A stretch of DNA of 11,174 nucleotides, taken from assembly GCF_018420025.1 (NCBI RefSeq), contig NZ_JAEDAM010000032.1, forward strand, positions 1 to 11,174, given 5' to 3'. The translations under genes were made by a program, and so were the position numbers. This DNA comes from Candidatus Vampirococcus lugosii. GTDB lineage: Bacteria; Patescibacteriota; Gracilibacteria; Absconditabacterales; Absconditicoccaceae. Below, piece by piece: positions 1 through 11,174 of the stretch (positions are counted from its first letter, which is position 1; each line of letters begins with the position of its first letter). Below the pieces are notes generated by a model, which saw only the letters and a list, made by a program, of their open reading frames with translations, made no database searches and had not been told where the DNA came from.

Positions 1-951
1 AGCTTTTATTTCAAAATTATATTCTCAAGCTTTAACATTTTCTAAATCAAAATTTTCATCTCAATTTATACTTAAACTATAATCTACATTTGGACTTACA
101 TTAAATACTACTTCATATCTTTCCTCTTCCAAATCAACATTTATTGTTTTTCATTCATCTTTTACCTCAAATTCTTCTGTCAAACTATTATATCCTGTCA
201 AACTTGCTTTATATTTATAACTTCCATTTACTAATTTATATATATTTCATGTTCAATTTATTTCATTTCATTCATTATCTTCTATTTCCAATTTTAAATC
301 TTCTGGATTTAAGTTAAATACTACTTCATATCTTTTCTCTTCCAAATCAACATTTATTGTTTTTCATTCATCTTTTACCTCAAAACTTCAAGTATAAGTT
401 TGATATCAATCAGCTTTTATTTCAAAATTATATTCTCAAGCTTTAACATTTTCTAAATCAAAATTTTCATCTCAATTTATACTTAAACTATAATCTACAT
501 TTGGACTTACATTAAATACTACTTCATATCTTTTCTCTTCCAAATCAACATTTATTGTTTTTCATTCATCTTTTACCTCAAAACTTCAAGTATAAGTTTG
601 ATATCAATCAGCTTTTATTTCAAAATTATATTCTCAAGCTTTAACATTTTCTAAATCAAAATTTTCATCTCAATTTATACTTAAACTATAATCTACATTT
701 GGACTTACATTAAATACTACTTCATATCTTTTCTCTTCCAAATCAACATTTATTGTTTTTCATTCATCTTTCACCTCAAATTCTTCTGTCAAACTATTAT
801 ATCCTGTCAAACTTGCTTTATATTTATAACTTCCATTTACTAATTTATATATATTTCATGTTCAATTTATTTCATTTCATTCATTATCTTCTATTTCCAA
901 TTTTAAATCTTCTGGATTTAAGTTAAATACTACTTCATATCTTTTCTCTTC
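1..951 (-). repeat. Near-identical in-frame coding tandem repeats (198-bp and 213-bp units, 609-bp super-period) encoding PEGA-like / carboxypeptidase-regulatory-like beta-sandwich domains of the protease
   Basis: Units on the minus strand are B1 739-951 (213 bp, 71 aa), A1 541-738 and A2 343-540 (198 bp, 66 aa each), B2 130-342 (213 bp) and A3 1-129 (cut by the window edge). Bases 1-342 are almost identical to 610-951. Unit A is EEKRYEVVFNVSPNVDYSLSINGDENFDLENVKAGEYNFEIKADGYQTYTGSFEVKDEGKTINVDL. Unit B is EEKRYEVVFNLNPEDLKLEIEDNEGNEINGTGNIYKLVNGSYKYKASLTGYNSLTEEFEVKDEGKTINVDL. The domain-family assignment rests on pattern resemblance only. Confidence 0.9.
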
Positions 952-2331
952 TACCTTGTCTGTCATACTTAATAAAGTTGCTTCCAAATCTGGAACAACA
1001 CCCCGTATAGTTTTAGTATCAAGAGAATCTAATTCTTGTCAATTATTTTTTATTAAATCAAAAATTTCACTATAAGTTTTTTCTGTTGCAAAAGACCAAA
1101 TTAAAGATACAACTCAAGCAATATGAGGAGATGCCATAGAAGTTCATGACATATTTCAATATTTATTTCAAGGCTTTGATGAATAAATTGAACTACCTGG
1201 TGCTCATATATGAACTGTTTTATCTCAAAAATTTGAAAAGCTAGATAATCATTTATCTTTTTTTAAAGATGCTACTGAAATAACATTGTCAAGTCATTCT
1301 ATACTATTTTCTCAACATTGAAAGTCTGATCAGAAACCTGCTGGAGTAAAAAAAGTTTGATCATTATCAGAAGAATTATTTCATGCAGATGCTATAAAGA
1401 CACCTCAATTATCTCAAAAATCTTTTATAGTATTATAAAATAGTTCATCAAAATAACAATTTGATTGATATCATAAACTTGCATTCAATACTTTTGCTCA
1501 ATTTTCTTTCGCAAAATTTATTCATCTAATTATACCACTTGTAGGACATGTTCAATTATCATTACAAACTTTCAAAGACATAATTTGTGCATATGGATTT
1601 ACTCAAACTATTCATCAATTTGATCAAAAACTATTTAAACTTCAAGCTATAGTTCAAGAAACATGTGTTCAGTGTCAATGTACATCATTTTGATCTTTTT
1701 GATTTGAAGCAAAATCATAACCATAAATACAATCTCACATATATTCTCAATTTCGATCAACACAATCATCTCAATTCCACATTTGTCATTCAAATTCTGG
1801 ATGATTATAATCAATTCATGTATCCAAAACACCTACCAATATTTTATTTGGATCTTGCATTTCCGAATTATATATATCAATTCATTTTGGCCATTTAATA
1901 AAATCCATTCACCAAAGTTTATCATAATCTGGAATATCTTTTGTTATATCATCAATTTCATAAATAAAATTTGGTTGAACATGTTTTACTCAAGGTTCTT
2001 TACTTAATTCTTTCATAAGTTCTTCTGTTGATTTAGCTTTAGACTTATTTTTTTGAGAATTAGTTCAAAACTTATTTCAAGTATCACTTTTTAATTTTAC
2101 TATATTTTTACTAGTATGTCAAATATTTTCAGTTTTATATCATTTTGATTTCATTCACTTTACAAAACTTTCAATATTTTGGGGTCAAATATTTCAAATT
2201 CTATCATCTTCATATAAAATAATAACTTCTCATTCTACATAAGGTTTATCAAAATTCGCAAATAATCTATTGACAAATCACATATAAATAATTAAAATTA
2301 TTGTTAATATTGAGAATATTGTTTTTTTCAT
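1..2331 (-). CDS. Subtilisin-family (peptidase S8) secreted serine protease, pre-pro form, with a C-terminal PEGA-like repeat array. The C-terminus runs off the left window edge (3'-partial).
   Basis: The minus-strand frame is set by ATG 2331-2329. With TGA=Gly it stays open for all 777 codons down to base 1 (hand translation: no TAA/TAG, about 63 in-frame TGA). Three subtilase catalytic motifs are present. VGVLDTGID has its Asp codon at 1822-1824, and the Gly of DTG is TGA at 1816-1818. HGHGTHVSGTIAG has its His at 1672-1674, with TGA glycines at 1675-1677, 1669-1671 and 1654-1656. GTSMASPHIAGV has its Ser at 1138-1140, preceded by a TGA Gly at 1144-1146. The N-terminus MKKTIFSILTIILIIYMGF is a signal/anchor helix. 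The segment ending ...EPGVKHVQPNFIYEI looks like an inhibitor-I9 type propeptide. Confidence 0.92.
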
Positions 2332-2366
2332 AGCATTTTTGTATAAAAAATAAAAATTATATTTTT

Positions 2367-2394
2367 TATATATCAAAAATACTCAAAAAGTCAA
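2367..2394 (-). promoter_or_regulatory. Candidate sigma-70-like promoter for the protease gene
   Basis: Minus strand reads TTGACT (2394-2389), 16-nt spacer, TATATA (2372-2367), about 35 nt upstream of ATG 2331. AT-rich DNA produces many such matches, so this is weak. Confidence 0.3.
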
Positions 2395-2439
2395 GTTAAA
2401 TTGATTATTTATATAATTTTTTTAAAAATAAAATAATAT

Positions 2440-2961
2440 CTAAAATTCTAAATCTTTCAAAATTCATAAAGTATTATTAATATTTCTATAAGTTTCTTTT
2501 TCTCACTTTTCCAAAATATGAAAACTGGTATAATTCCAGTCATTTATATTATCTACTATTCAATGTTTAATAGCATTAAAATTAACATAAACAAAACATT
2601 TCTGTAAATAAACATCATCTTGTATAGCTTTTACTTTGAATCTTCAATCAAATACAGGTCATTTTCAAGTTCAATATTTTGCTTTAAAATATTGTGCATA
2701 AGATTGTTGAATTTTTCTCATAAAGTTTGAAATATAATTTTCAGTTTCAGATTTTGAAATTAATATAAAATGAAAATGATTTGGCAAAAAACAATATGAA
2801 ACCAAATCTATTTTTGAAAAATCTCATTTTGAATATTTTAAAATTATTTTGTAAAATCTATCATAATCAGAATGTTCATAAAAAATTCTCTGTTGTTCAA
2901 ATCAACGATTAAAAATATGATAATATATATAAGGATATAATTTAAAATATCTAATTGGCAT
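2440..2961 (-). CDS. HUH-type Y1 tyrosine transposase of the IS200-like / REP-associated (RayT, COG1943-like) family
   Basis: ATG 2961-2959 to TAG 2442-2440, 173 aa, with 9 in-frame TGA read as Gly. Motifs seen: YHIFNRG near the N-terminus, the HUH motif in LPNHFHFIL, GPVFDGRFK, and the catalytic-Tyr region CFVYVNFNAIKHGIVDNINDWNYTSF. Order and spacing are typical of RayT-type transposases. Confidence 0.82.
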
Positions 2962-2982
2962 CTTACTTTTTTTAAATATAAA

Positions 2983-3054
2983 TTCTCGCCCGGGCGGATA
3001 TATTATATTAATTTTAAATTAAATTTCAAGCAAAATTTCCCGCCCGGGCGAGAA
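2983..3054. repeat. Pair of inverted GC-rich REP-like palindromes flanking a 42-nt AT-rich spacer, immediately upstream of the RayT-like gene
   Basis: TTCTCGCCCGGGCGG (2983-2997) is the exact reverse complement of CCGCCCGGGCGAGAA (3040-3054). Each arm also contains the self-complementary core CGCCCGGGCG. These are by far the most GC-rich 15-mers in an otherwise AT-rich window, and they start 22 nt upstream of ATG 2961. Confidence 0.7.
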
Positions 3055-3064
3055 AACAACAATT

Positions 3065-3094
3065 AAAAAAAACTCCGACCAAGGTCAGAGTTTT
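3065..3094 (-). terminator. Rho-independent terminator of the SLH surface-protein gene
   Basis: Minus strand reads AAAACTCTGACC-TT-GGTCGGAGTTTT followed by TTTT. That is a 10-12 bp stem with one G-U pair and then a T-run, located about 36 nt after the TAA at 3131-3133. Confidence 0.7.
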
Positions 3095-3130
3095 AAAACT
3101 AAATTAATAAGTTTTTTGTTAAAAAAGTAA

Positions 3131-6841
<3,711 letters not shown>

Positions 6842-6915
6842 GTGTTTGTATTAGATAAGTATATAAATAAAACTGTTTTCTCCATTATATAATTTAAATT
6901 ATGGAGCACAGCGGT

Positions 6916-6943
6916 AGTTTACAAATTTTTTATAAAAATTCAA
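6916..6943 (-). promoter_or_regulatory. One of several candidate sigma-70-like promoters for the surface-protein gene within the 376-nt AT-rich intergenic region 6842-7217
   Basis: Minus strand reads TTGAAT (6943-6938), 16-nt spacer, TAAACT (6921-6916). Alternatives exist, for example TTGCAC-N17-TAAATG about 60 nt further upstream. Sequence alone cannot distinguish them. Confidence 0.2.
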
Positions 6944-7217
6944 GAGAATTTTAATAAAAATATATAATTAAAGTAAATAACAACATTTAAGCACTATTGT
7001 AAACTTGTGCAAACTGTATTACGATATATGTTTTTATTTGTGACAAAAAAAATTATAAATTAGTAATAATAGTTAGTATTAATCATAATATACAGAGCAA
7101 AACTATTATAATTCATATTAAATTATATTTTTTATTATTCATAAATATATATTAAATATTAAATATATACTATATTATATAATATAATATTTTTTTTGCA
7201 AATTAATCATAAATAAT

Positions 7218-8645
7218 TTAAGTTATTATTCTGAAATATCTCAAAACAAATAATAAACTAATAAATAATAATATCAATTTTATTTTTAATATATAATTTT
7301 GTATTATCATATAAAATCAATTCATATAAAATAAATTAGAAATACAATAAAACCAATCAACAATTATATTTTGTAAATAAATCAAATAACTAAAATCAAA
7401 AAATATAAGAGATAAAGAAATTATCATTAATAATGGCAAAAATGGAACAACTAAAATATTTGCAAATATTGTAAAAAGATTTATTTGATCAGTAAAAAAA
7501 AGTAAAAATGGAAAAACTCATAAACTAGCTCATATAGTGGGATATACATATTCTCAAATTCTTTTATGAACAAAAGATTTTTGTTTAGGTAAAAAATATT
7601 GAAAAACAATAATTCAAATTAAAGCAGAAAAACTTAAAGCAAAACCCATATCATATAATATACTATAAGGATTAAACAATAAAACAATTACAAAAGCTGT
7701 TTTTATTAAATTCCATATATACACTTCCCTACCTGCCAATATAGCAAATAAAGTAATGGATCACATAATCCAAGCACGAAAAATATTTGCTGAAAGTCAA
7801 ACCATAAAAGAATAAAAACTTACACAAAAAATAATAATTATTATTCTAATATACAAAGGTAGCCAAAAAAATAAAATATTTAAGAAAAATACTAAAAAAG
7901 CTATATGAGTTCCACTAGTTGCAATCATATGAACTAATCATGTTTCCAAAAATGTTTGATATTCAAAATTAGGAATTAATGATCTATCCCCTATCAACAC
8001 TCATATAGATAAACCAGAATATTTATTATTTCATAAATTTTCTTGTAATGAAGATTTTACAAAATTTTTGGACCAAAATAAATAATCAAGATTATTATTA
8101 TCCAAATAAATAAAATTATCTTCATAAATTGTTCAATAATATTTTTTCAAAAATAGCCAATATTTGTAATCAAATTCATATTCAAAATCTTTTGTAGACA
8201 AATTTATATAAAAATCTTCAAAAAAATTATCAAAATCATTTAATATTTTACTTTGAGTCAATCACGGAGAATATGATGAATAAGTTTTTATTGTATCTCA
8301 TATATTATGTTCATAATCTGAATAATAAATATATTTTCTATTATGATAATCTTTAAAAATAAATCTTTGAGAATCAATTCTATCTACAATCTGCCCTGTT
8401 CATACAAAAGATTTATCAAAATCAGGAATTTTTTGGAAATAAAAATAATGATTAATAAAAATAGATAAAAATGGAAATAAAATTACCAATAATATATTTG
8501 AGAAAAATAAAAATAATTTTTCTTTGTAAAAAATTTGTAAAATAGAAATTATAAATAATTCAATCAAGGATATTATTGAAAAAAGAAATAAATCTTCTAT
8601 CAATACTAACAATAAAATATTTATACTAAAAAATAAAATATACAT
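7218..8645 (-). CDS. comEC: ComEC/Rec2-family DNA internalisation channel, short form (OB-fold plus Competence domain only, no metallo-beta-lactamase domain)
   Basis: ATG 8645-8643 to TAA 7220-7218, 475 aa, hand-translated with TGA=Gly and no other stops. The N-terminus has hydrophobic helices (MYILFFSINILLLVLIEDLFLFSIISLIELFIISIL...). An OB-fold-like soluble segment follows: GTGQIVDRIDSQRFIFKDY...IGDTIKTYSSYSP. The hallmark Competence-domain motif is GLSIGVLIGDRSLIPNFEYQTFLETGLVHMIATSGTHIAFLVFFL. Several further hydrophobic segments then run to the C-terminus. Confidence 0.87.
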
Positions 8646-8668
8646 AACTAAATTTTTGTAAAATAAAT

Positions 8669-9550
8669 TTAATTATCAATTAATTTTGATATTTTATCTT
8701 GATATGAAATACTTTGATATGGAATAGATAGATATTTTAATATCAATAAAAAATGCAGTCTAGCCCCTACCCCACTTTTTGCTGTAGAAAAAAAATCAAT
8801 TATTTCTTTTATAGATTTATCACTTCGATCATAAATTTCAATATTTTTGTATTGAGATCTTAATATTTGATATACACTTATATCTTCACTAATATCTCAT
8901 GGCACAAAATAAATTTTTTCATTATTTTGAATTTGACAAGCTTTAAATAATTTTTGTCGATCATATTTTGATTTAATATACGGATTTCAATTTATCAAAA
9001 TATTATTTGAAATAGATTTTTTTTCAATTTTGAATTTATCCAAAACATCAATAGCAAAATCATGATATTGAATAGTATTTTTATTATAAGATTTAGCAAT
9101 ATTGAAAGAATCTTTTTCTCTTACTACTATATTTTTAGCTTTAGGAAGTAAAAAATTATATAAATATTTAGTTCTTTTTTTATTTATTTTTCATATTCAT
9201 CAAAATAAAACAAAATCTTCAAAAAATATTTTATTAAAAAATTTTATAGGATATAAATAACCATCATAAGGGAAAGATCTCTGATCAGTAAGTACTTCCC
9301 CACCTCATCGAAAATGTATAGTATTTTTTGTAAAAAAAGGATATTTTTGAGAAAAAGTAATTTTATTAATATCAATATCTAATAAATCTTTATTTTTATC
9401 TAACCAAGAACTTAACCAATCTGGATTTGGACTTATTATTTTCAATAAATTTAAATCATAATTATTAAAAATGTAATTTATTAATCATATCATAAGTATC
9501 TCATCTCACAGGTTCTTGTATCAAAAATAACCTTTCAATATTCATTGCAT
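8669..9550 (-). CDS. csaB: Polysaccharide pyruvyl transferase, CsaB-like
   Basis: ATG 9550-9548 to TAA 8671-8669, 293 aa. An in-frame TAA at 9578-9580 bounds the frame upstream. The motif series is in CsaB order: MQGILKGYFGYKNLGDEILM (N-terminal GYYGxxNxGDE type), HFRGGGEVLTD, LFGGIG, NIVVREKDSF, DFAIDV, IYFVPGDISED, and C-terminal GVGARLHFLLILKYLSIPYQSISYQDKI (MRLHaLI...P..isYdpK type). Confidence 0.78.
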
Positions 9551-11174
9551 TTTTTTTAAATAAATTTTTAAAATTTTTTATCTCAGAATTAAACAGTGAA
9601 AAAATATATTTATTAGTATTTTTAAATACATTAAAATAATAATTTGGAATATATTTATTATAATATGAAGGCAAATCTGATATATTGCCATTATTTATCA
9701 TTTCAATATGAGATATATTATAAGGTTTAACTTTTATTCAATCAATTTCAAGTAAATCTTTTCATTCTTTTAAATTATCAATTTGATTTTGATAAATATC
9801 ATTAACACTTGAAATTCAAGATTCTTCAAATACCATATACCAATCTGACTTAAGTTTTTTATTTACTATATTTGAATAATTTTTATGCAAATTCATTTTA
9901 TTTTTATACAATTCTCTATCATCAACACATTTAGATCGTGAATTTCTCGCCCGTTCATATTTGTTTTTATTTTGTAAAATTATATTATCCATTTTTTCAA
10001 TATTTTTGATGGAAGTATTTATTATTTTTGGCAATTCATACTCCCCTAACAAAAATTCATCTTGATAATCAAAAAGTCTATATTCTCATTCATAATTATT
10101 ATCAAAATATAAGCTTTGATATCAATTTGAATTAGTAGACACTACCCTGTCCATTATCTGTCAATCTTGTCATATTAATTCTAATTTTTGAGAATTTAAA
10201 CTAATATAAATAGAATCCAAAGTATAAACATTTAAATCTCTAGGAAAAGCAAATTCAGTATCTGAAATTACAATATATTCTCAAGATCAAACATTTATTT
10301 CAAACTCTCTAGAACTAGATCATCGTCATAATCAATTTACTTTCAAATTTCAAGAATACACTCATCATATAGATTGAATTTTTATATATGATGCTAACAA
10401 ATCATTAACAGGATTTATTTCAACTATTTTCAAATTTCATTGATTATTTTTCTCTTCTTTATTTTCTTCATCTTTATTTTCAATTATTTCACTGTCCAAA
10501 CTGTCTATATTTTGTCAATCTTTATTTTGACAATTTGTAGGGGAGTCTAGACTTATATTTTTGTCATCAATAATATTTTGTAATATACTTTGTCAAATTC
10601 ATTTTATTTCAAGTAATTCTTCATATTTACAATATGGTTTATTTTTTATTATTTCTCTTGCTATATTTTCTCATATTCTATTTATTGTTTTTAACTCTTC
10701 TATACTTGCCGTATTTATTTCAATTTTTTTGTTTATTTCATTTTGTTCAATTTTTTTATTTTCTTCATCTTTATTTTGTCAAGTTTCTTTATTTTCTTCA
10801 TCTTTATTTTCAATTATTTCATTGTCCAAACTGTCTATATTTTGTCAATCTTTATTTTGACAATTTGTAGGGGAGTCTAGACTTATATTTTTGTCATCAA
10901 TAATATTTTGTAATATACTTTGTCAAATTCATTTTATTTCAAGTAATTCTTCATATTTACAATATGGTTTATTTTTTATTATTTCTCTTGCTATATTTTC
11001 TCATATTCTATTTATTGTTTTTAACTCTTCTATACTTGCTGTATTTATTTCAAATTTTTTGTTTATTTCATTTTGTTCAATTTCTTTATTCTCTTCATCT
11101 TTATTTTCAATTATTTCATTGTCCAAACTGTCTATATTTTGTCAATCTTTATTTTGACAATTTGTAGGGGAGTC
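9465..11174 (-). CDS. Multi-domain DNA-binding surface protein: tandem ComEA-type helix-hairpin-helix domains, a lamin-tail domain (LTD) and an unassigned Asn/Lys-rich C-terminal region. The N-terminus runs off the right window edge (5'-partial).
   Basis: The frame is open from base 11174 (a codon boundary) to TAA 9467-9465 with TGA=Gly. ORF-track fragments 9501..9701 and 9816..10052 lie in this frame. The ComEA-like HhH pair INTASIEELKTINRIGENIAREIIKNKPYCKYEELLEIKGIGQSILQNII occurs twice, at about 10899-11048 and 10569-10718. The LTD-like segment (about 10140-10436) reads NLKIVEINPVNDLLASYIKIQSIGGVYSGNLKVNGLG...EFEINVGSGEYIVISD...ISLNSQKLELIGQDGQIMDRVV. The remaining roughly 225 aa (9468-10139) match nothing I recognise. 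Confidence 0.85.
10455..11174 (-). repeat. Near-identical in-frame tandem repeat (330-bp and 297-bp units), each encoding one ComEA-like HhH domain plus an acidic Asn/Lys/Glu linker
   Basis: Unit 1 is 10531-10860 (330 bp) and unit 2 is 10861-11157 (297 bp). A partial copy lies at 10455-10530, and the start of another at 11158-11174. The units differ by a handful of substitutions and one 33-bp (11-codon) indel, which is itself an internal sub-repeat (KNEEDKNQGTE / KNEEDKNEIIE, 10751-10816). CAATTTGTAGGGGAGTC recurs at 10531, 10861 and 11158. Confidence 0.9.

What the first reader, a model, noticed from the sequence alone, without database searches (positions are those of the whole stretch)
7218..11174. 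ComEA-like/LTD DNA binder, CsaB pyruvyl transferase and ComEC form one tight co-directional unit: a putative wall-coupled DNA capture and import operon
Seen: three minus-strand genes are packed with an 86-nt overlap (9465-9550) and a 23-nt gap (8646-8668). There is no hairpin terminator between them, and the first long non-coding stretch comes only after comEC (6842-7217). Established: ComEA HhH domains bind incoming dsDNA outside the membrane and ComEC is the import channel. CsaB pyruvylates secondary cell-wall polymer so that SLH proteins can bind it. Inference: a wall-polymer-modifying enzyme embedded between the DNA receptor and the DNA channel is not the classical comE operon layout. It suggests that DNA capture, wall anchoring and import are co-expressed. 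That would fit a reduced-genome organism that scavenges nucleic acids from a host or the environment. I know of no described system with this arrangement, but I cannot search.
Basis: partly seen in the sequence, partly recalled or inferred. Interest (0 to 1): 0.72.

Follow-up and report, generated by a model that had tools for sequence, protein, structure and literature searches.

The report
DNA-uptake genes interleaved with S-layer genes
In the tiny predatory bacterium Vampirococcus lugosii and its relatives, the genes for a surface DNA-binding protein and the DNA import channel sit in one tight, conserved cluster with the two genes that modify the cell wall and anchor the cell's protein coat; the parts are known, but I found no description of this arrangement.

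Summary
Read with TGA as glycine (code 25), the window is a whole 11,174-nt contig of Candidatus Vampirococcus lugosii. It carries three minus-strand genes with an 86-nt overlap and a 23-nt gap: a partial protein with ComEA-type HhH repeats, an LTD-like region and an unknown C-terminal domain; a CsaB-like pyruvyl transferase; and a ComEC without the beta-lactamase domain.

Pyruvyl transferase followed by ComEC is found in 14 Absconditabacteria-type genomes, including the closed Ca. Absconditicoccus praedator genome.

In 8 genomes a fourth conserved member follows ComEC: a 1236-aa SLH (S-layer-type) protein, the ordinary client of CsaB. The strong terminators come only after that gene.

The upstream protein family clearly handles DNA. 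Its middle section is an HhH array in the Vampirococcus clade and a staphylococcal nuclease domain in other lineages.

Best reading: two known functional pairs, DNA capture with import and wall pyruvylation with SLH anchoring, are interleaved and probably co-expressed. This resembles the unrelated comEB gene inside the Bacillus comE operon. Nothing shows that the wall modification takes part in DNA capture. It is a new variant of known systems and of moderate interest.

The parts
9465..11174 (-). Gene 1 (partial; N-terminus lost at the contig end): a secreted modular surface protein with at least 2 ComEA-type HhH_3 modules, an LTD-like beta module and a conserved C-terminal domain. NCBI names it 'ComEA family DNA-binding protein, partial' (MBS8122023.1).
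   Evidence: Code-25 ORF. Pfam HHH_3 E 3.7e-23, two stretches. Exact match to the NCBI record. Full-length orthologues of 1167-1317 aa have signal peptides and 4-8 HhH modules.
10878..11051 (-). HhH_3 module, residues 42-99 of the partial protein
   Evidence: Own HMM E 5e-24. AF2 pLDDT about 85. Foldseek top hit is 2DUY, the Thermus ComEA-related protein: TM 0.76, rmsd 1.6 A, 38% identity.
10548..10721 (-). HhH_3 module, residues 152-209
   Evidence: Pfam HHH_3 best stretch 149-201. NCBIfam TIGR00426 (ComEA HhH repeat region) scores 45.3 bits, below its 53.1 cut-off. AF2 pLDDT about 80.
10455..11174 (.). 330-nt tandem repeat, 99% identical, encoding the linker plus HhH unit. A third partial copy runs into the contig end.
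   Evidence: Tandem Repeats Finder: period 330, 2.0 copies, 98% matches. The repeat finder families D1 and D3.
10044..10433 (-). LTD-like all-beta module, residues 248-377
   Evidence: No direct Pfam hit in the window protein. It is 32% identical (E 1e-16) to the L006 module that passes the Pfam LTD cut-off. Four of 14 family modules hit LTD individually. LTD is at or near its cut-off in L019, L011 and L012. The AF2 model is unreliable here.
9486..10043 (-). Conserved C-terminal domain of unknown fold: a predicted helical or coiled-coil stretch plus a KSDWYxVFxESG motif
   Evidence: Conserved in the family across lineages. No Pfam or PDB match. AF2 pLDDT below 60.
9465..9550 (-). 86-nt overlap between the 3' end of gene 1 and the 5' end of the PT gene
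   Evidence: Sequence read directly. Overlaps of 95, 77 and 74 nt occur in A. praedator, L009 and L001.
8669..9550 (-). Gene 2: CsaB-like ketal-pyruvyl transferase, 293 aa
   Evidence: Pfam PF04230 E 6.7e-15. The best and only NCBIfam hit is TIGR03609 CsaB, full length, 88.6 bits against a 213.1 cut-off. Invariant R144, R264-x-H266 and K286 have the spacing of the P. alvei CsaB PEP-binding residues.
8646..8668 (-). 23-nt gap between the PT and ComEC genes
   Evidence: Sequence read directly. Gaps of 5-35 nt in A. praedator, L009, L006, L011 and L020.
7218..8645 (-). Gene 3: short ComEC/Rec2, 475 aa. The Competence domain covers residues 217-463 (nt 7257-7997). There is no metallo-beta-lactamase domain.
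   Evidence: Pfam PF03772 E 2.5e-35. TIGR00360 scores 70.7 bits, above its 36.5 cut-off, while the ComEC_Rec2 equivalog is below cut-off. 100% identical to NCBI MBS8122021.1 of Ca. Vampirococcus lugosii.
6842..7217 (-). 376-nt spacer with blocks invariant in four species: TTGTCA (7046-7041), 17 nt, CGTAAT (7023-7018); TTGAAT (6943-6938), 16 nt, TAAACT (6921-6916); then a hairpin at 6912-6872 followed by a U tract, about 30 nt before the SLH gene start.
   Evidence: Alignment A4. Folds with z-scores from -1.6 to -3.3 in the four species. Relaxed hairpin scan. Promoter and leader roles are inferred, not shown.
3131..6841 (-). Gene 4: 1236-aa SLH-domain S-layer-type protein. It has a signal peptide, SLH motifs in residues about 30-195, an acidic EP-rich repeat linker and a large beta-rich body.
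   Evidence: Pfam SLH E 7.6e-13. Motif 1 scores 19.6 bits, motif 2 scores 40.8 bits, and motif 3 is not detected. Homologues follow ComEC in A. praedator, L009, L011, L012, L013, L014, L015, L028 and L032.
3036..3094 (-). Tandem intrinsic-terminator-like hairpins (3094-3069, 11 bp plus T8; 3055-3036, 8 bp) directly after the SLH gene
   Evidence: Tool scan: 6 sites against 0.9 expected in 2300-7300. Own scan. Equivalent strong hairpins follow the SLH gene in A. praedator and five other genomes.

Best explanation
The three genes are real. They belong to a conserved four-gene, co-directional cluster of Absconditabacteria-type (code 25) CPR bacteria:
1. A secreted modular protein that handles extracellular DNA. 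In Vampirococcus it is an array of ComEA-type HhH modules plus an LTD-like module and a family-specific C-terminal domain.
2. A cytoplasmic CsaB-like pyruvyl transferase.
3. A ComEC membrane channel without the nuclease domain.
4. An SLH-domain S-layer-type protein.

The cluster is two known functional pairs interleaved. Genes 1 and 3 capture DNA at the surface and import it. Gene 2 pyruvylates the secondary wall polymer that the SLH protein of gene 4, and the other SLH proteins of these genomes, bind.

Genes 1-3 are very probably one transcript. Their overlap and short gap fit translational coupling that sets ComEC output, as comEB does for comEC in Bacillus subtilis. Gene 4 appears to have its own promoter and leader, and the strong terminators follow it.

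Shown: the domain families, the packing, the conserved gene order, the terminator positions, and the HhH/SNase module swap. Inferred: co-transcription, translational coupling, the substrate of the transferase, and the DNA-receptor role.
For: - Families: HHH_3, PS_pyruv_trans, Competence and SLH all pass Pfam cut-offs. CsaB is the only NCBIfam hit for the transferase and aligns over its full length.
- HhH modules: their best fold match is the Thermus ComEA-related protein 2DUY.
- DNA role of the gene-1 family: orthologues in L014, L019, L022 and L026 carry an SNase domain (E 4e-18 and 1.7e-23) in place of the HhH array. LTD combined with a nuclease or metallo-beta-lactamase domain is a documented architecture of extracellular DNA-handling proteins (PMC6085458, PMC5118699, PMC8289736).
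- Synteny: the full four-gene order occurs in 8 distinct genomes, including the closed Ca. Absconditicoccus praedator genome. PT followed by ComEC occurs in 14, at 29-59% PT identity and 28-57% ComEC identity, across at least 5 different flanking contexts.
- PT and SLH link: where PT is not next to ComEC (the oral and gut SR1 group), the convergent gene 2 nt downstream has weak similarity (phmmer E 5e-4) to the window protein's SLH-bearing N-terminal region; Pfam SLH was not tested on it. CsaB/SLH co-occurrence and gene adjacency are established (bioRxiv 10.1101/2021.05.31.446380, PMC6030368).
- Terminators: none lies on the coding strand from gene 1 to the end of gene 4 in either V. lugosii or A. 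praedator. Strong ones lie directly after gene 4.
- Spacer: conserved promoter-like blocks and a hairpin precede gene 4.
- Precedent for a passenger enzyme gene coupled to comEC: bioRxiv 10.1101/2020.12.30.424838.
Against: - The transferase is far below the CsaB equivalog cut-off (88.6 against 213.1 bits), and its acceptor is unknown.
- The catalytic-residue match rests on motif spacing only; there was no PDB hit.
- PT followed by ComEC persists in L018, L020, L006 and L003, where no SLH gene is nearby. The gene-1 family also overlaps PT in four species. The ordinary CsaB/SLH logic explains neither point, and both leave room for a real link between PT and the DNA genes.
- There are no expression data.
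- The hairpin and U tract at 6912-6872 could terminate ComEC transcripts, making the unit three genes plus one.
- The LTD call for the window protein is indirect, and the C-terminal domain has no known fold.
- Part of the surrounding neighbourhood (MurG, SecF, RluA, an LCP ligase) is also syntenic, so some of the conservation may be general.
Confidence: 0.55

Rival explanations
1. The pyruvyl transferase is a working part of DNA capture. Its wall-polymer product positions or anchors the HhH/LTD receptor, for example through the uncharacterised C-terminal domain or the LTD module. DNA binding, wall attachment and import would then form one apparatus.
For: - The gene-1 family overlaps or abuts PT in 9 genomes: overlaps of 74-95 nt in four and 16 nt in L006, and gaps of 3-57 nt in the others.
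- PT followed by ComEC survives in genomes with no SLH gene nearby: L018, L020, L006 and L003.
- The family-wide C-terminal domain has no assigned function.
- LTDs have been proposed to direct proteins to membranes or membrane-associated structures (PMC6085458).
Against: - The receptor has no SLH domain.
- In 8 genomes PT lies away from ComEC. In six of them it is next to a small protein with weak similarity to the SLH region, while the LTD-SNase gene is 7 kb away on the other strand.
- L032 keeps ComEC followed by the SLH gene with no PT or LTD gene upstream.
- The conserved SLH gene gives a sufficient conventional reason for a CsaB.
Confidence: 0.2
2. Conserved by descent only. The four genes are neighbours because the ancestor had them so and this region rearranges slowly. 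Tight junctions simply reflect genome compaction. No functional or regulatory coupling between the envelope pair and the DNA pair is selected for.
For: - Other unrelated genes nearby (MurG, SecF, RluA, RNase III, an LCP ligase, Y1 transposase) are also partly syntenic among these genomes.
- Several lineages have broken the block: L001, L032, L034 and the oral SR1 group.
- B. subtilis comEB shows that a passenger gene can sit in a competence operon without contributing to function.
Against: - PT followed by ComEC is retained at about 30% protein identity in at least 5 different flanking contexts. These include L018 and L020, which share no flanking family with the others.
- The long overlap is conserved in four species.
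- No terminator lies inside the block in the two named species examined with the tool.
Confidence: 0.2
3. The ComEC-like protein is not a DNA channel in this setting. It acts on the wall polymer instead, for instance as a substitute for the CsaA flippase that accompanies CsaB in Bacillus anthracis (my own knowledge, not checked here). That would explain its place between csaB and the S-layer gene.
For: - It lacks the metallo-beta-lactamase nuclease domain, and the DUF4131 OB module is not detected.
- ComEC followed by the SLH gene stays adjacent even without PT, in L032.
Against: - The Competence domain match is strong, and TIGR00360 passes its cut-off.
- ComECs without the beta-lactamase domain are common among the homologues found.
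- The upstream gene carries DNA-binding or nuclease modules.
- No Competence-domain protein is known to transport polysaccharide (my own knowledge).
- comEC mediates transformation in another CPR lineage (PMC10633639).
Confidence: 0.03

Closest known systems
Bacillus subtilis comE operon (comEA-comEB-comEC)
   Same: A gene for a ComEA-type HhH DNA receptor lies upstream and comEC downstream, on the same strand, with an enzyme gene unrelated to DNA transport between them. The junction into comEC is tight. In B. subtilis, ComEB is dispensable for transformation but its translation is needed for ComEC synthesis (bioRxiv 10.1101/2020.12.30.424838).
   Different: The middle gene is a CsaB-like pyruvyl transferase, not a dCMP deaminase. 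The receptor is a giant secreted protein with an HhH array, an LTD-like module and a novel C-terminal domain, not a small membrane-anchored ComEA. ComEC lacks the beta-lactamase domain. An SLH S-layer-type gene is a conserved fourth member.
csaB next to SLH-protein genes (the B. anthracis S-layer locus from my own knowledge; csaB beside Omp-alpha/Omp-beta in Bipolaricaulota)
   Same: A PF04230 pyruvyl transferase is encoded close to the gene of an SLH-domain surface protein. The genome-level co-occurrence of CsaB and SLH is the established rule (bioRxiv 10.1101/2021.05.31.446380, PMC6030368).
   Different: ComEC lies between the two genes, and a DNA-binding protein overlaps csaB. No CsaA-like flippase is seen in the locus. 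The lineage is a CPR group, for which the same preprint reports loss of SLH/CsaB.
LTD-containing extracellular DNA-handling proteins: ExeM/NucH nucleases, Haloferax Hvo_1477 (LTD plus thermonuclease), haloarchaeal ComA (beta-lactamase domain plus LTD), and the Izemoplasma 1049-aa protein with LTD, nuclease and nucleic-acid-binding domains
   Same: These are secreted or lipid-anchored proteins that combine LTD modules with DNA-binding or DNA-cleaving modules. The SNase-bearing orthologues in L014 and L019 have the Hvo_1477 architecture.
   Different: In the Vampirococcus clade the DNA module is an array of ComEA-type HhH_3 units and there is no nuclease. The family has its own conserved C-terminal domain. 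Its gene is linked to csaB and comEC.
Canonical ComEA (for example the Thermus thermophilus ComEA-related protein, PDB 2DUY)
   Same: Each HhH_3 module matches in sequence (38% identity) and fold (TM 0.76, rmsd 1.6 A). NCBI already labels the protein as ComEA family.
   Different: ComEA has one HhH_3 unit in a protein of about 100-200 residues. Here there are at least 2 units in the fragment and 4-8 in full-length orthologues of 1167-1317 residues, together with LTD-like and C-terminal domains. The Vampirococcus paper lists a ComEA under a locus tag from another contig (Vamp_21_186, against Vamp_67_106 for ComEC; PMC8080830). I did not check how that tag relates to this protein.

Membership tests
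ComEA | C-terminal HhH_3 (PF12836) DNA-binding unit | tested here: met
   Pfam HHH_3 E 3.7e-23, 81.8 bits against a cut-off of 27, two stretches. Foldseek top hit is the ComEA-related protein 2DUY.
ComEA | Passes the NCBIfam ComEA models (TIGR00426 HhH repeat region; TIGR01259 comE) | tested here: not met
   TIGR00426 scores 45.3 bits against a cut-off of 53.1. TIGR01259 scores 36.2 bits against 152.35.
ComEA | Small protein of about 100-200 aa with a single HhH_3 unit and an N-terminal membrane anchor | tested here: not met
   The fragment alone is 569 aa with at least 2 units. Orthologues are 1167-1317 aa with 4-8 units plus LTD-like and C-terminal domains. They do have N-terminal signal sequences.
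ComEC/Rec2 | Polytopic Competence domain (PF03772; TIGR00360) | tested here: met
   PF03772 E 2.5e-35, 122.6 bits against a cut-off of 23. TIGR00360 scores 70.7 bits against 36.5.
ComEC/Rec2 | N-terminal OB-fold module (DUF4131, PF13567) | tested here: inconclusive
   Only E 3.6 on the N-terminal 211 residues. More distant homologues carry PF13567.
ComEC/Rec2 | C-terminal metallo-beta-lactamase nuclease domain (PF00753); full-length equivalog TIGR00361 | tested here: not met
   The protein ends 12 residues after the Competence domain. TIGR00361 scores 79.9 bits against a cut-off of 190. All close relatives, 454-581 aa, lack it too.
CsaB (secondary-wall-polymer ketal-pyruvyl transferase) | PS_pyruv_trans domain (PF04230) | tested here: met
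   E 6.7e-15, 56.2 bits against a cut-off of 25.3, covering positions 1-264 of the 280-position profile.
CsaB (secondary-wall-polymer ketal-pyruvyl transferase) | Passes the CsaB equivalog model TIGR03609 | tested here: not met
   It is the best and only NCBIfam hit and aligns over the full length, but scores 88.6 bits against a cut-off of 213.1.
CsaB (secondary-wall-polymer ketal-pyruvyl transferase) | PEP-binding residues of P. alvei CsaB (R148, R306-x-H308, K328) and the aromatic acceptor-site motif (Y14, F16) | tested here: inconclusive
   Invariant R144, R264-L-H266 and K286 (20 residues after the histidine, the same spacing) and GYFGY at residues 7-11. This is matched by motif and spacing only. 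There is no direct alignment to CsaB or Pvg1p; the PDB profile search found nothing.
CsaB (secondary-wall-polymer ketal-pyruvyl transferase) | Co-occurrence with SLH-domain proteins | tested here: met
   An SLH protein is encoded one gene away. Its homologues are linked to PT in 9 further genomes, and a protein with weak similarity to the SLH region is linked to PT in the oral SR1 group. The literature reports 8-10 SLH proteins in a related Absconditicoccaceae species and diverse SLH genes in A. praedator (PMC13059738).
CsaB (secondary-wall-polymer ketal-pyruvyl transferase) | Pyruvylation of beta-D-ManNAc on the lipid-linked wall-polymer precursor | not testable with these tools
   This needs the enzyme assay of PMC8615578 or PMC6030368.
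Lamin tail domain (LTD, PF00932) | Match to the Pfam LTD model at its gathering score | tested here: not met
   The window protein has no hit at E up to 1. Orthologous proteins in L006 (35.9 bits) and L019 (36.4 bits) pass the 34.3 cut-off. L011 and L012 are just below.
Lamin tail domain (LTD, PF00932) | Homology of the window module to modules that are recognised as LTD | tested here: met
   32% identity, E 1e-16, to the L006 module under the Pfam LTD match. Four of 14 aligned modules hit LTD on their own.
Lamin tail domain (LTD, PF00932) | Ig-like beta-sandwich fold | tested here: inconclusive
   AF2 gives only beta strands at 247-357, with pLDDT 24-59.
SLH-anchored S-layer protein | N-terminal trimer of SLH motifs (PF00395) after a signal peptide | tested here: inconclusive
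   Motif 2 scores 40.8 bits. Motif 1 scores 19.6 bits, just under the 20.8 cut-off. Motif 3 is not detected. TRAQ and TRAE sequences are visible in motifs 1 and 2 (their significance is from my own knowledge).
comE-type competence operon | Receptor and channel genes transcribed together | not testable with these tools
   Consistent with the 86-nt overlap, the 23-nt gap and the lack of internal terminators. No transcript data are available.

The most novel reading that the evidence does not exclude
The cluster encodes one coordinated, envelope-spanning DNA-harvesting apparatus peculiar to predatory Absconditabacteria. An S-layer is held on wall polymer pyruvylated by CsaB. Through or on it, a giant HhH/LTD receptor (an LTD-SNase nuclease in sister lineages) is positioned by its unique C-terminal domain. 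The receptor captures or cuts prey DNA and passes it to a ComEC that has shed its own nuclease domain.
Probability: 0.17. Interest if true: 0.7.

Novelty: new variant of a known kind. Interest (0 to 1): 0.5.

Why it matters
- It names a concrete candidate for the surface DNA receptor, and in sister lineages the surface nuclease, that works with ComEC in a CPR lineage believed to live on prey nucleic acids. The candidate rests on gene linkage and on an HhH/SNase module swap.
- It shows that a CsaB-like transferase and SLH proteins are present and genetically linked in at least 20 Absconditabacteria-type genomes. A published survey concluded that the CPR had lost this system.
- It offers a second natural case, after comEB, of an unrelated enzyme gene wedged tightly before comEC. 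That makes translational coupling as a way to set ComEC levels a more general hypothesis.
- Ca. Absconditicoccus praedator is grown in co-culture and has the identical locus, so the predictions can be tested directly.
- It also cautions that the public label 'ComEA family DNA-binding protein' hides a modular surface protein of about 1200 residues.

Tried and rejected
- A homologue search with the LTD-like plus C-terminal region found nothing, probably because database translations are truncated or carry W at TGA.
- Profile searches of the LTD module, the C-terminal domain and the PT family against PDB sequences gave no significant hit.
- The single-sequence AF2 model of P0033 was useless, with mean pLDDT 35.
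- A six-sequence alignment rescued only the HhH modules, so there is no fold evidence for the LTD-like or C-terminal regions.
- Rfam found nothing in the window.
- The sigma-70 promoter scan is uninformative in this 22-24% GC sequence: 50 sites found against 55 expected.
- The text search for 'CsaB' plus 'ComEC' was swamped by Hungarian personal names.
- I tested whether L032 (ComEC followed by the SLH gene, no PT) and L001/L002 (HhH-LTD followed by PT, no ComEC) come from one genome. They are from the same metagenome, but there is no DNA overlap, so it is unresolved.
- DUF4131 was not detected in the ComEC N-terminus.
- I considered that the 86-nt overlap might come from a wrong PT start and rejected it. 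The conserved N-terminal motif fixes the start.
- I considered that TGA might be Trp (code 4) and rejected it, because TGA falls on conserved glycines (PMC8080830).

Full report
**Identity and reading frame**

The window has 22-24% G+C and only short ORFs under the standard bacterial code. Treating TGA as a sense codon gives six long ORFs, all on the minus strand. The TGA codons fall on conserved glycines: the subtilase GHGTH and GTSMASPH motifs and the pyruvyl-transferase GYxGxxNxGDE motif. This is genetic code 25.

The ComEC protein is 100% identical to NCBI MBS8122021.1 of Candidatus Vampirococcus lugosii, on a contig of exactly 11,174 nt, so the window is that whole contig. V. lugosii is an epibiotic predator of Halochromatium, with UGA reassigned to glycine and no nucleotide biosynthesis (PMC8080830).

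**The observation**

- The HhH/LTD gene is 9465..11174, with its 5' end cut by the contig end.
- The pyruvyl transferase (PT) is 8669..9550.
- ComEC is 7218..8645.
- The overlap is 86 nt, the gap 23 nt, and the spacer 6842-7217 is 376 nt.

The PT start is fixed by the conserved N-terminal KGYYGYKN motif, which begins at residue 6-8 in nearly all orthologues. A long overlap with the upstream gene recurs in A. praedator (95 nt), L009 (77 nt) and L001 (74 nt).

No terminator-like hairpin lies between the three genes (relaxed scan).

**Family assignments**

Pfam gives the following, all above the gathering scores:
- HHH_3, E 3.7e-23, two stretches
- PS_pyruv_trans, E 6.7e-15
- Competence, E 2.5e-35

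NCBIfam refines this.
- The PT's only hit is CsaB (TIGR03609). It aligns over the full length but scores 88.6 bits against a cut-off of 213.1.
- ComEC passes the TIGR00360 domain model but not the full-length equivalog, because it ends 12 residues after the Competence domain and has no metallo-beta-lactamase domain.
- The ComEA HhH model is just below its cut-off.

With a six-sequence alignment, AlphaFold models the two HhH modules at pLDDT 80-86. Their best PDB match is the Thermus ComEA-related protein 2DUY (TM 0.76, rmsd 1.6 A, 38% identity). NCBI already names this fragment 'ComEA family DNA-binding protein, partial'.

The LTD call is indirect. Pfam does not see LTD in the window protein. 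However, the window module is 32% identical (E 1e-16) to the L006 module that passes the LTD cut-off. Four of 14 aligned modules hit LTD on their own, and the L019 orthologue passes the cut-off. I could not obtain a reliable structure for the LTD-like or C-terminal regions.

**The synteny test**

PT homologues are rare and clade-restricted. The word-indexed search found six, and the species-genome scan found 21 loci. Twenty of those loci are MAGs labelled Absconditabacteria, SR1 or Peribacteria, or 'uncultured bacterium', whose loci read as code 25 with TGA as sense; the other is a gammaproteobacterium.

I called genes with TGA as sense, built HMMs from my own sequences, and added ComEC-anchored loci. 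Counting distinct genomes:
- The full order, LTD-family gene then PT then ComEC then SLH protein, occurs in 8: the window, the closed Ca. Absconditicoccus praedator genome, L009, L011, L012, L013, L014 and L028.
- LTD-family gene, PT and ComEC without the SLH gene occur in L006 and L003.
- PT and ComEC occur in that order in L015, L016, L018 and L020.
- In total, PT followed by ComEC holds in 14 genomes.
- It is absent in L001, L017, L021 and a group of six closely related oral and gut SR1 genomes.
- L032 keeps ComEC followed by the SLH gene without PT.
- L034 has ComEC alone.

Protein identities to the window are 29-59% for PT and 28-57% for ComEC. The block sits in at least five different flanking contexts. 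L018 and L020 share no flanking family with the others.

The gene after the 376-nt spacer, 3131..6841, encodes a 1236-aa protein with a signal peptide and N-terminal SLH motifs. Its homologues follow ComEC in A. praedator, L009, L011-L015, L028 and L032.

In the oral and gut group, where PT is away from ComEC, the convergent gene 2 nt after PT has weak similarity (phmmer E 5e-4) to the window protein's SLH-bearing N-terminal region. I did not test Pfam SLH on that protein.

SLH proteins bind pyruvylated secondary wall polymer made by CsaB. CsaB/SLH co-occurrence, and even gene adjacency, are established (PMC6030368, PMC10435577, bioRxiv 10.1101/2021.05.31.446380). This is the conventional reason for a csaB-like gene here.

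That same preprint states that SLH/CsaB was lost in the CPR, based on 15 sampled genomes. These genomes are an exception. SLH proteins in Absconditicoccaceae have been noted since (PMC13059738).

**Where the transcription unit ends**

On the coding strand of the window, no terminator-like site occurs from 11174 down to the SLH stop at 3131. Two strong ones follow at once: 3094-3069 (11 bp plus T8) and 3055-3036. The tool found 6 sites against 0.9 expected in 2300-7300.

In A. praedator the only same-strand terminator-like site lies 31 nt after the SLH stop. Six further genomes (L011, L012, L013, L014, L015, L028) show a hairpin and T tract right after the SLH gene in my own relaxed scan; it is weakest in L015.

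The ComEC-SLH spacer is always long (285-650 nt where the two genes are directly adjacent). It holds blocks invariant in four species: TTGTCA, 17 nt, CGTAAT; then TTGAAT, 16 nt, TAAACT; then a hairpin whose stem sequence differs between species, followed by a U tract about 30 nt before the start codon.

I read this as the SLH gene's own promoter and leader. The hairpin could instead, or also, terminate transcripts coming from comEC. Only transcript mapping can decide between three genes plus one and four genes.

**What the upstream protein is**

Full-length orthologues (1167-1317 aa) have a signal peptide and 4-8 HhH_3 modules in two groups. They also have one or two LTD-like modules and a conserved C-terminal domain of about 160 residues, with a predicted helical region and a KSDWYxVFxESG motif.

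The family extends to lineages with no HhH modules at all: L003, L006, L011-L014, L028 and L019. There, the L014 protein (block-linked) and the L019, L022 and L026 proteins carry a staphylococcal nuclease domain. The Pfam SNase hits are E 4e-18 and 1.7e-23, and the RxLGxDAPE and DxYxRxLxYVY motifs are intact.

One family therefore alternates between a DNA-binding array and a DNA-cleaving domain. This is strong evidence that its job is extracellular DNA. LTD combined with a thermonuclease (Haloferax Hvo_1477), with an EEP nuclease (ExeM) or with a beta-lactamase domain (haloarchaeal ComA) is a known theme (PMC5118699, PMC6085458, PMC8289736).

The exhaustive search of 1.84 billion representatives found only about five proteins matching the LTD-like and C-terminal part of the window protein. 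The HhH-bearing subfamily is therefore narrow.

**Interpretation**

The best-supported reading is two known functional pairs, interleaved and probably co-expressed. One pair is a surface DNA receptor with the ComEC channel. The other is a CsaB-like transferase with an SLH surface protein.

The tight junctions fit translational coupling. B. subtilis offers a close precedent: ComEB, a dCMP deaminase encoded between comEA and comEC, is dispensable for transformation, yet its translation is needed for ComEC synthesis (bioRxiv 10.1101/2020.12.30.424838).

It is not supported, because the receptor has no SLH domain and PT parts company with ComEC in 8 genomes while staying beside a gene with SLH-region similarity in six of them. 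It is not excluded either. PT followed by ComEC persists in four genomes with no SLH gene nearby. The LTD-family gene overlaps PT in four species. The family's C-terminal domain has no known function.

**Novelty and interest**

Each part is known, and two of the genes are already labelled ComEA family and ComEC in GenBank. DNA scavenging through ComEC is a standard CPR hypothesis, although in Saccharibacteria comEC was needed for transformation and not for fitness (PMC10633639).

Not described in the literature I could search:
- the conserved four-gene arrangement
- the HhH/SNase modular surface family with its own C-terminal domain
- the linkage of a CsaB/SLH system to comEC in a CPR lineage

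I rate it a new variant of a known kind, with interest 0.5.

Noticed in passing
window 1-780 and 10455-11174: Both ends of the contig fall inside near-identical tandem repeats: 198-nt units in the subtilase gene and 330-nt HhH units. The assembly probably broke there, so the number of HhH modules in V. lugosii is unknown. The near-identical Logan contig L030 also starts just after the HhH repeats.
   Followed up: partly
window 1-2331 (-): An S8 subtilase with a signal peptide and at least five 66-residue CarboxypepD_reg/PEGA-like repeats, cut by the contig start. The gene at this position in A. praedator is an unrelated 816-aa protein.
   Followed up: partly
window 2440-2961 (-); L031 4985-5587 and 15594-16115: An IS200-like Y1 transposase gene follows the SLH gene and is orthologous (67.6%) to the one at the same place in A. 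praedator. That genome also has a 39% identical paralogue, divergently oriented, just upstream of the HhH gene, so the block is bracketed. L009 and L001 carry TTCAAGGCCGGCCTTGAA palindromes beside their copy, which resembles a REP/RAYT system.
   Followed up: partly
window 6842-7217 (-): The spacer before the SLH gene has two promoter-like blocks invariant in four species and a hairpin with a U tract at 6912-6872 whose stem sequence differs between species. If the transcription start lies near 6909, transcripts reading through from comEC would form the full hairpin and terminate, while SLH transcripts would keep only an inner 5' stem. This is untested.
   Followed up: partly
window 5966-6241 (-): The SLH protein has a strongly acidic linker made of (EP)n and [14 protein letters not shown] repeats, encoded by 87-nt tandem units, between the SLH region and the body of the protein.
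   Followed up: no
L014 5355-8975; L019 17125-20637; L022; L026: Orthologues of the upstream surface protein carry a staphylococcal nuclease domain with intact active-site motifs instead of HhH arrays. Because these ComECs lack their own nuclease domain, such a partner could supply strand degradation in trans. That is speculation.
   Followed up: partly
L003 8709-9212; L006 5460-6500; L021 and L027 next to PT; L028 and L019 flanks: Other genes near the block:
- a dCMP deaminase two genes after ComEC in L003, which echoes comEB
- recA convergent 2 nt after ComEC in L006
- a PilT-like ATPase divergent from PT in L021 and L027
- an LCP wall-polymer ligase, MurG and SecF recurring in the neighbourhood
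   Followed up: partly
L001/L002 and L032/L033: One metagenome (ERZ27266011) yields a contig with the HhH-LTD gene and PT but no ComEC, and another with ComEC and the SLH gene but no PT. If they come from one genome, the block has split into its two tightest pairs rather than its two functional pairs. There is no sequence overlap to prove it.
   Followed up: partly
literature against L009-L028: A published survey (bioRxiv 10.1101/2021.05.31.446380) concludes that SLH/CsaB was lost in the CPR. A CsaB-like gene is present in all 22 Absconditabacteria-type genomes recovered through PT, and an SLH-type gene lies within the fetched locus in about 15 of them. Recoded TGA may hide these genes from standard pipelines.
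   Followed up: partly
protein database entries P0002, P0003, P0037, P0038, P0163: Many public translations of these genes carry W where the genome has TGA (glycine), so they were translated with code 4 rather than code 25. This weakens homology searches and would degrade structure prediction.
   Followed up: no
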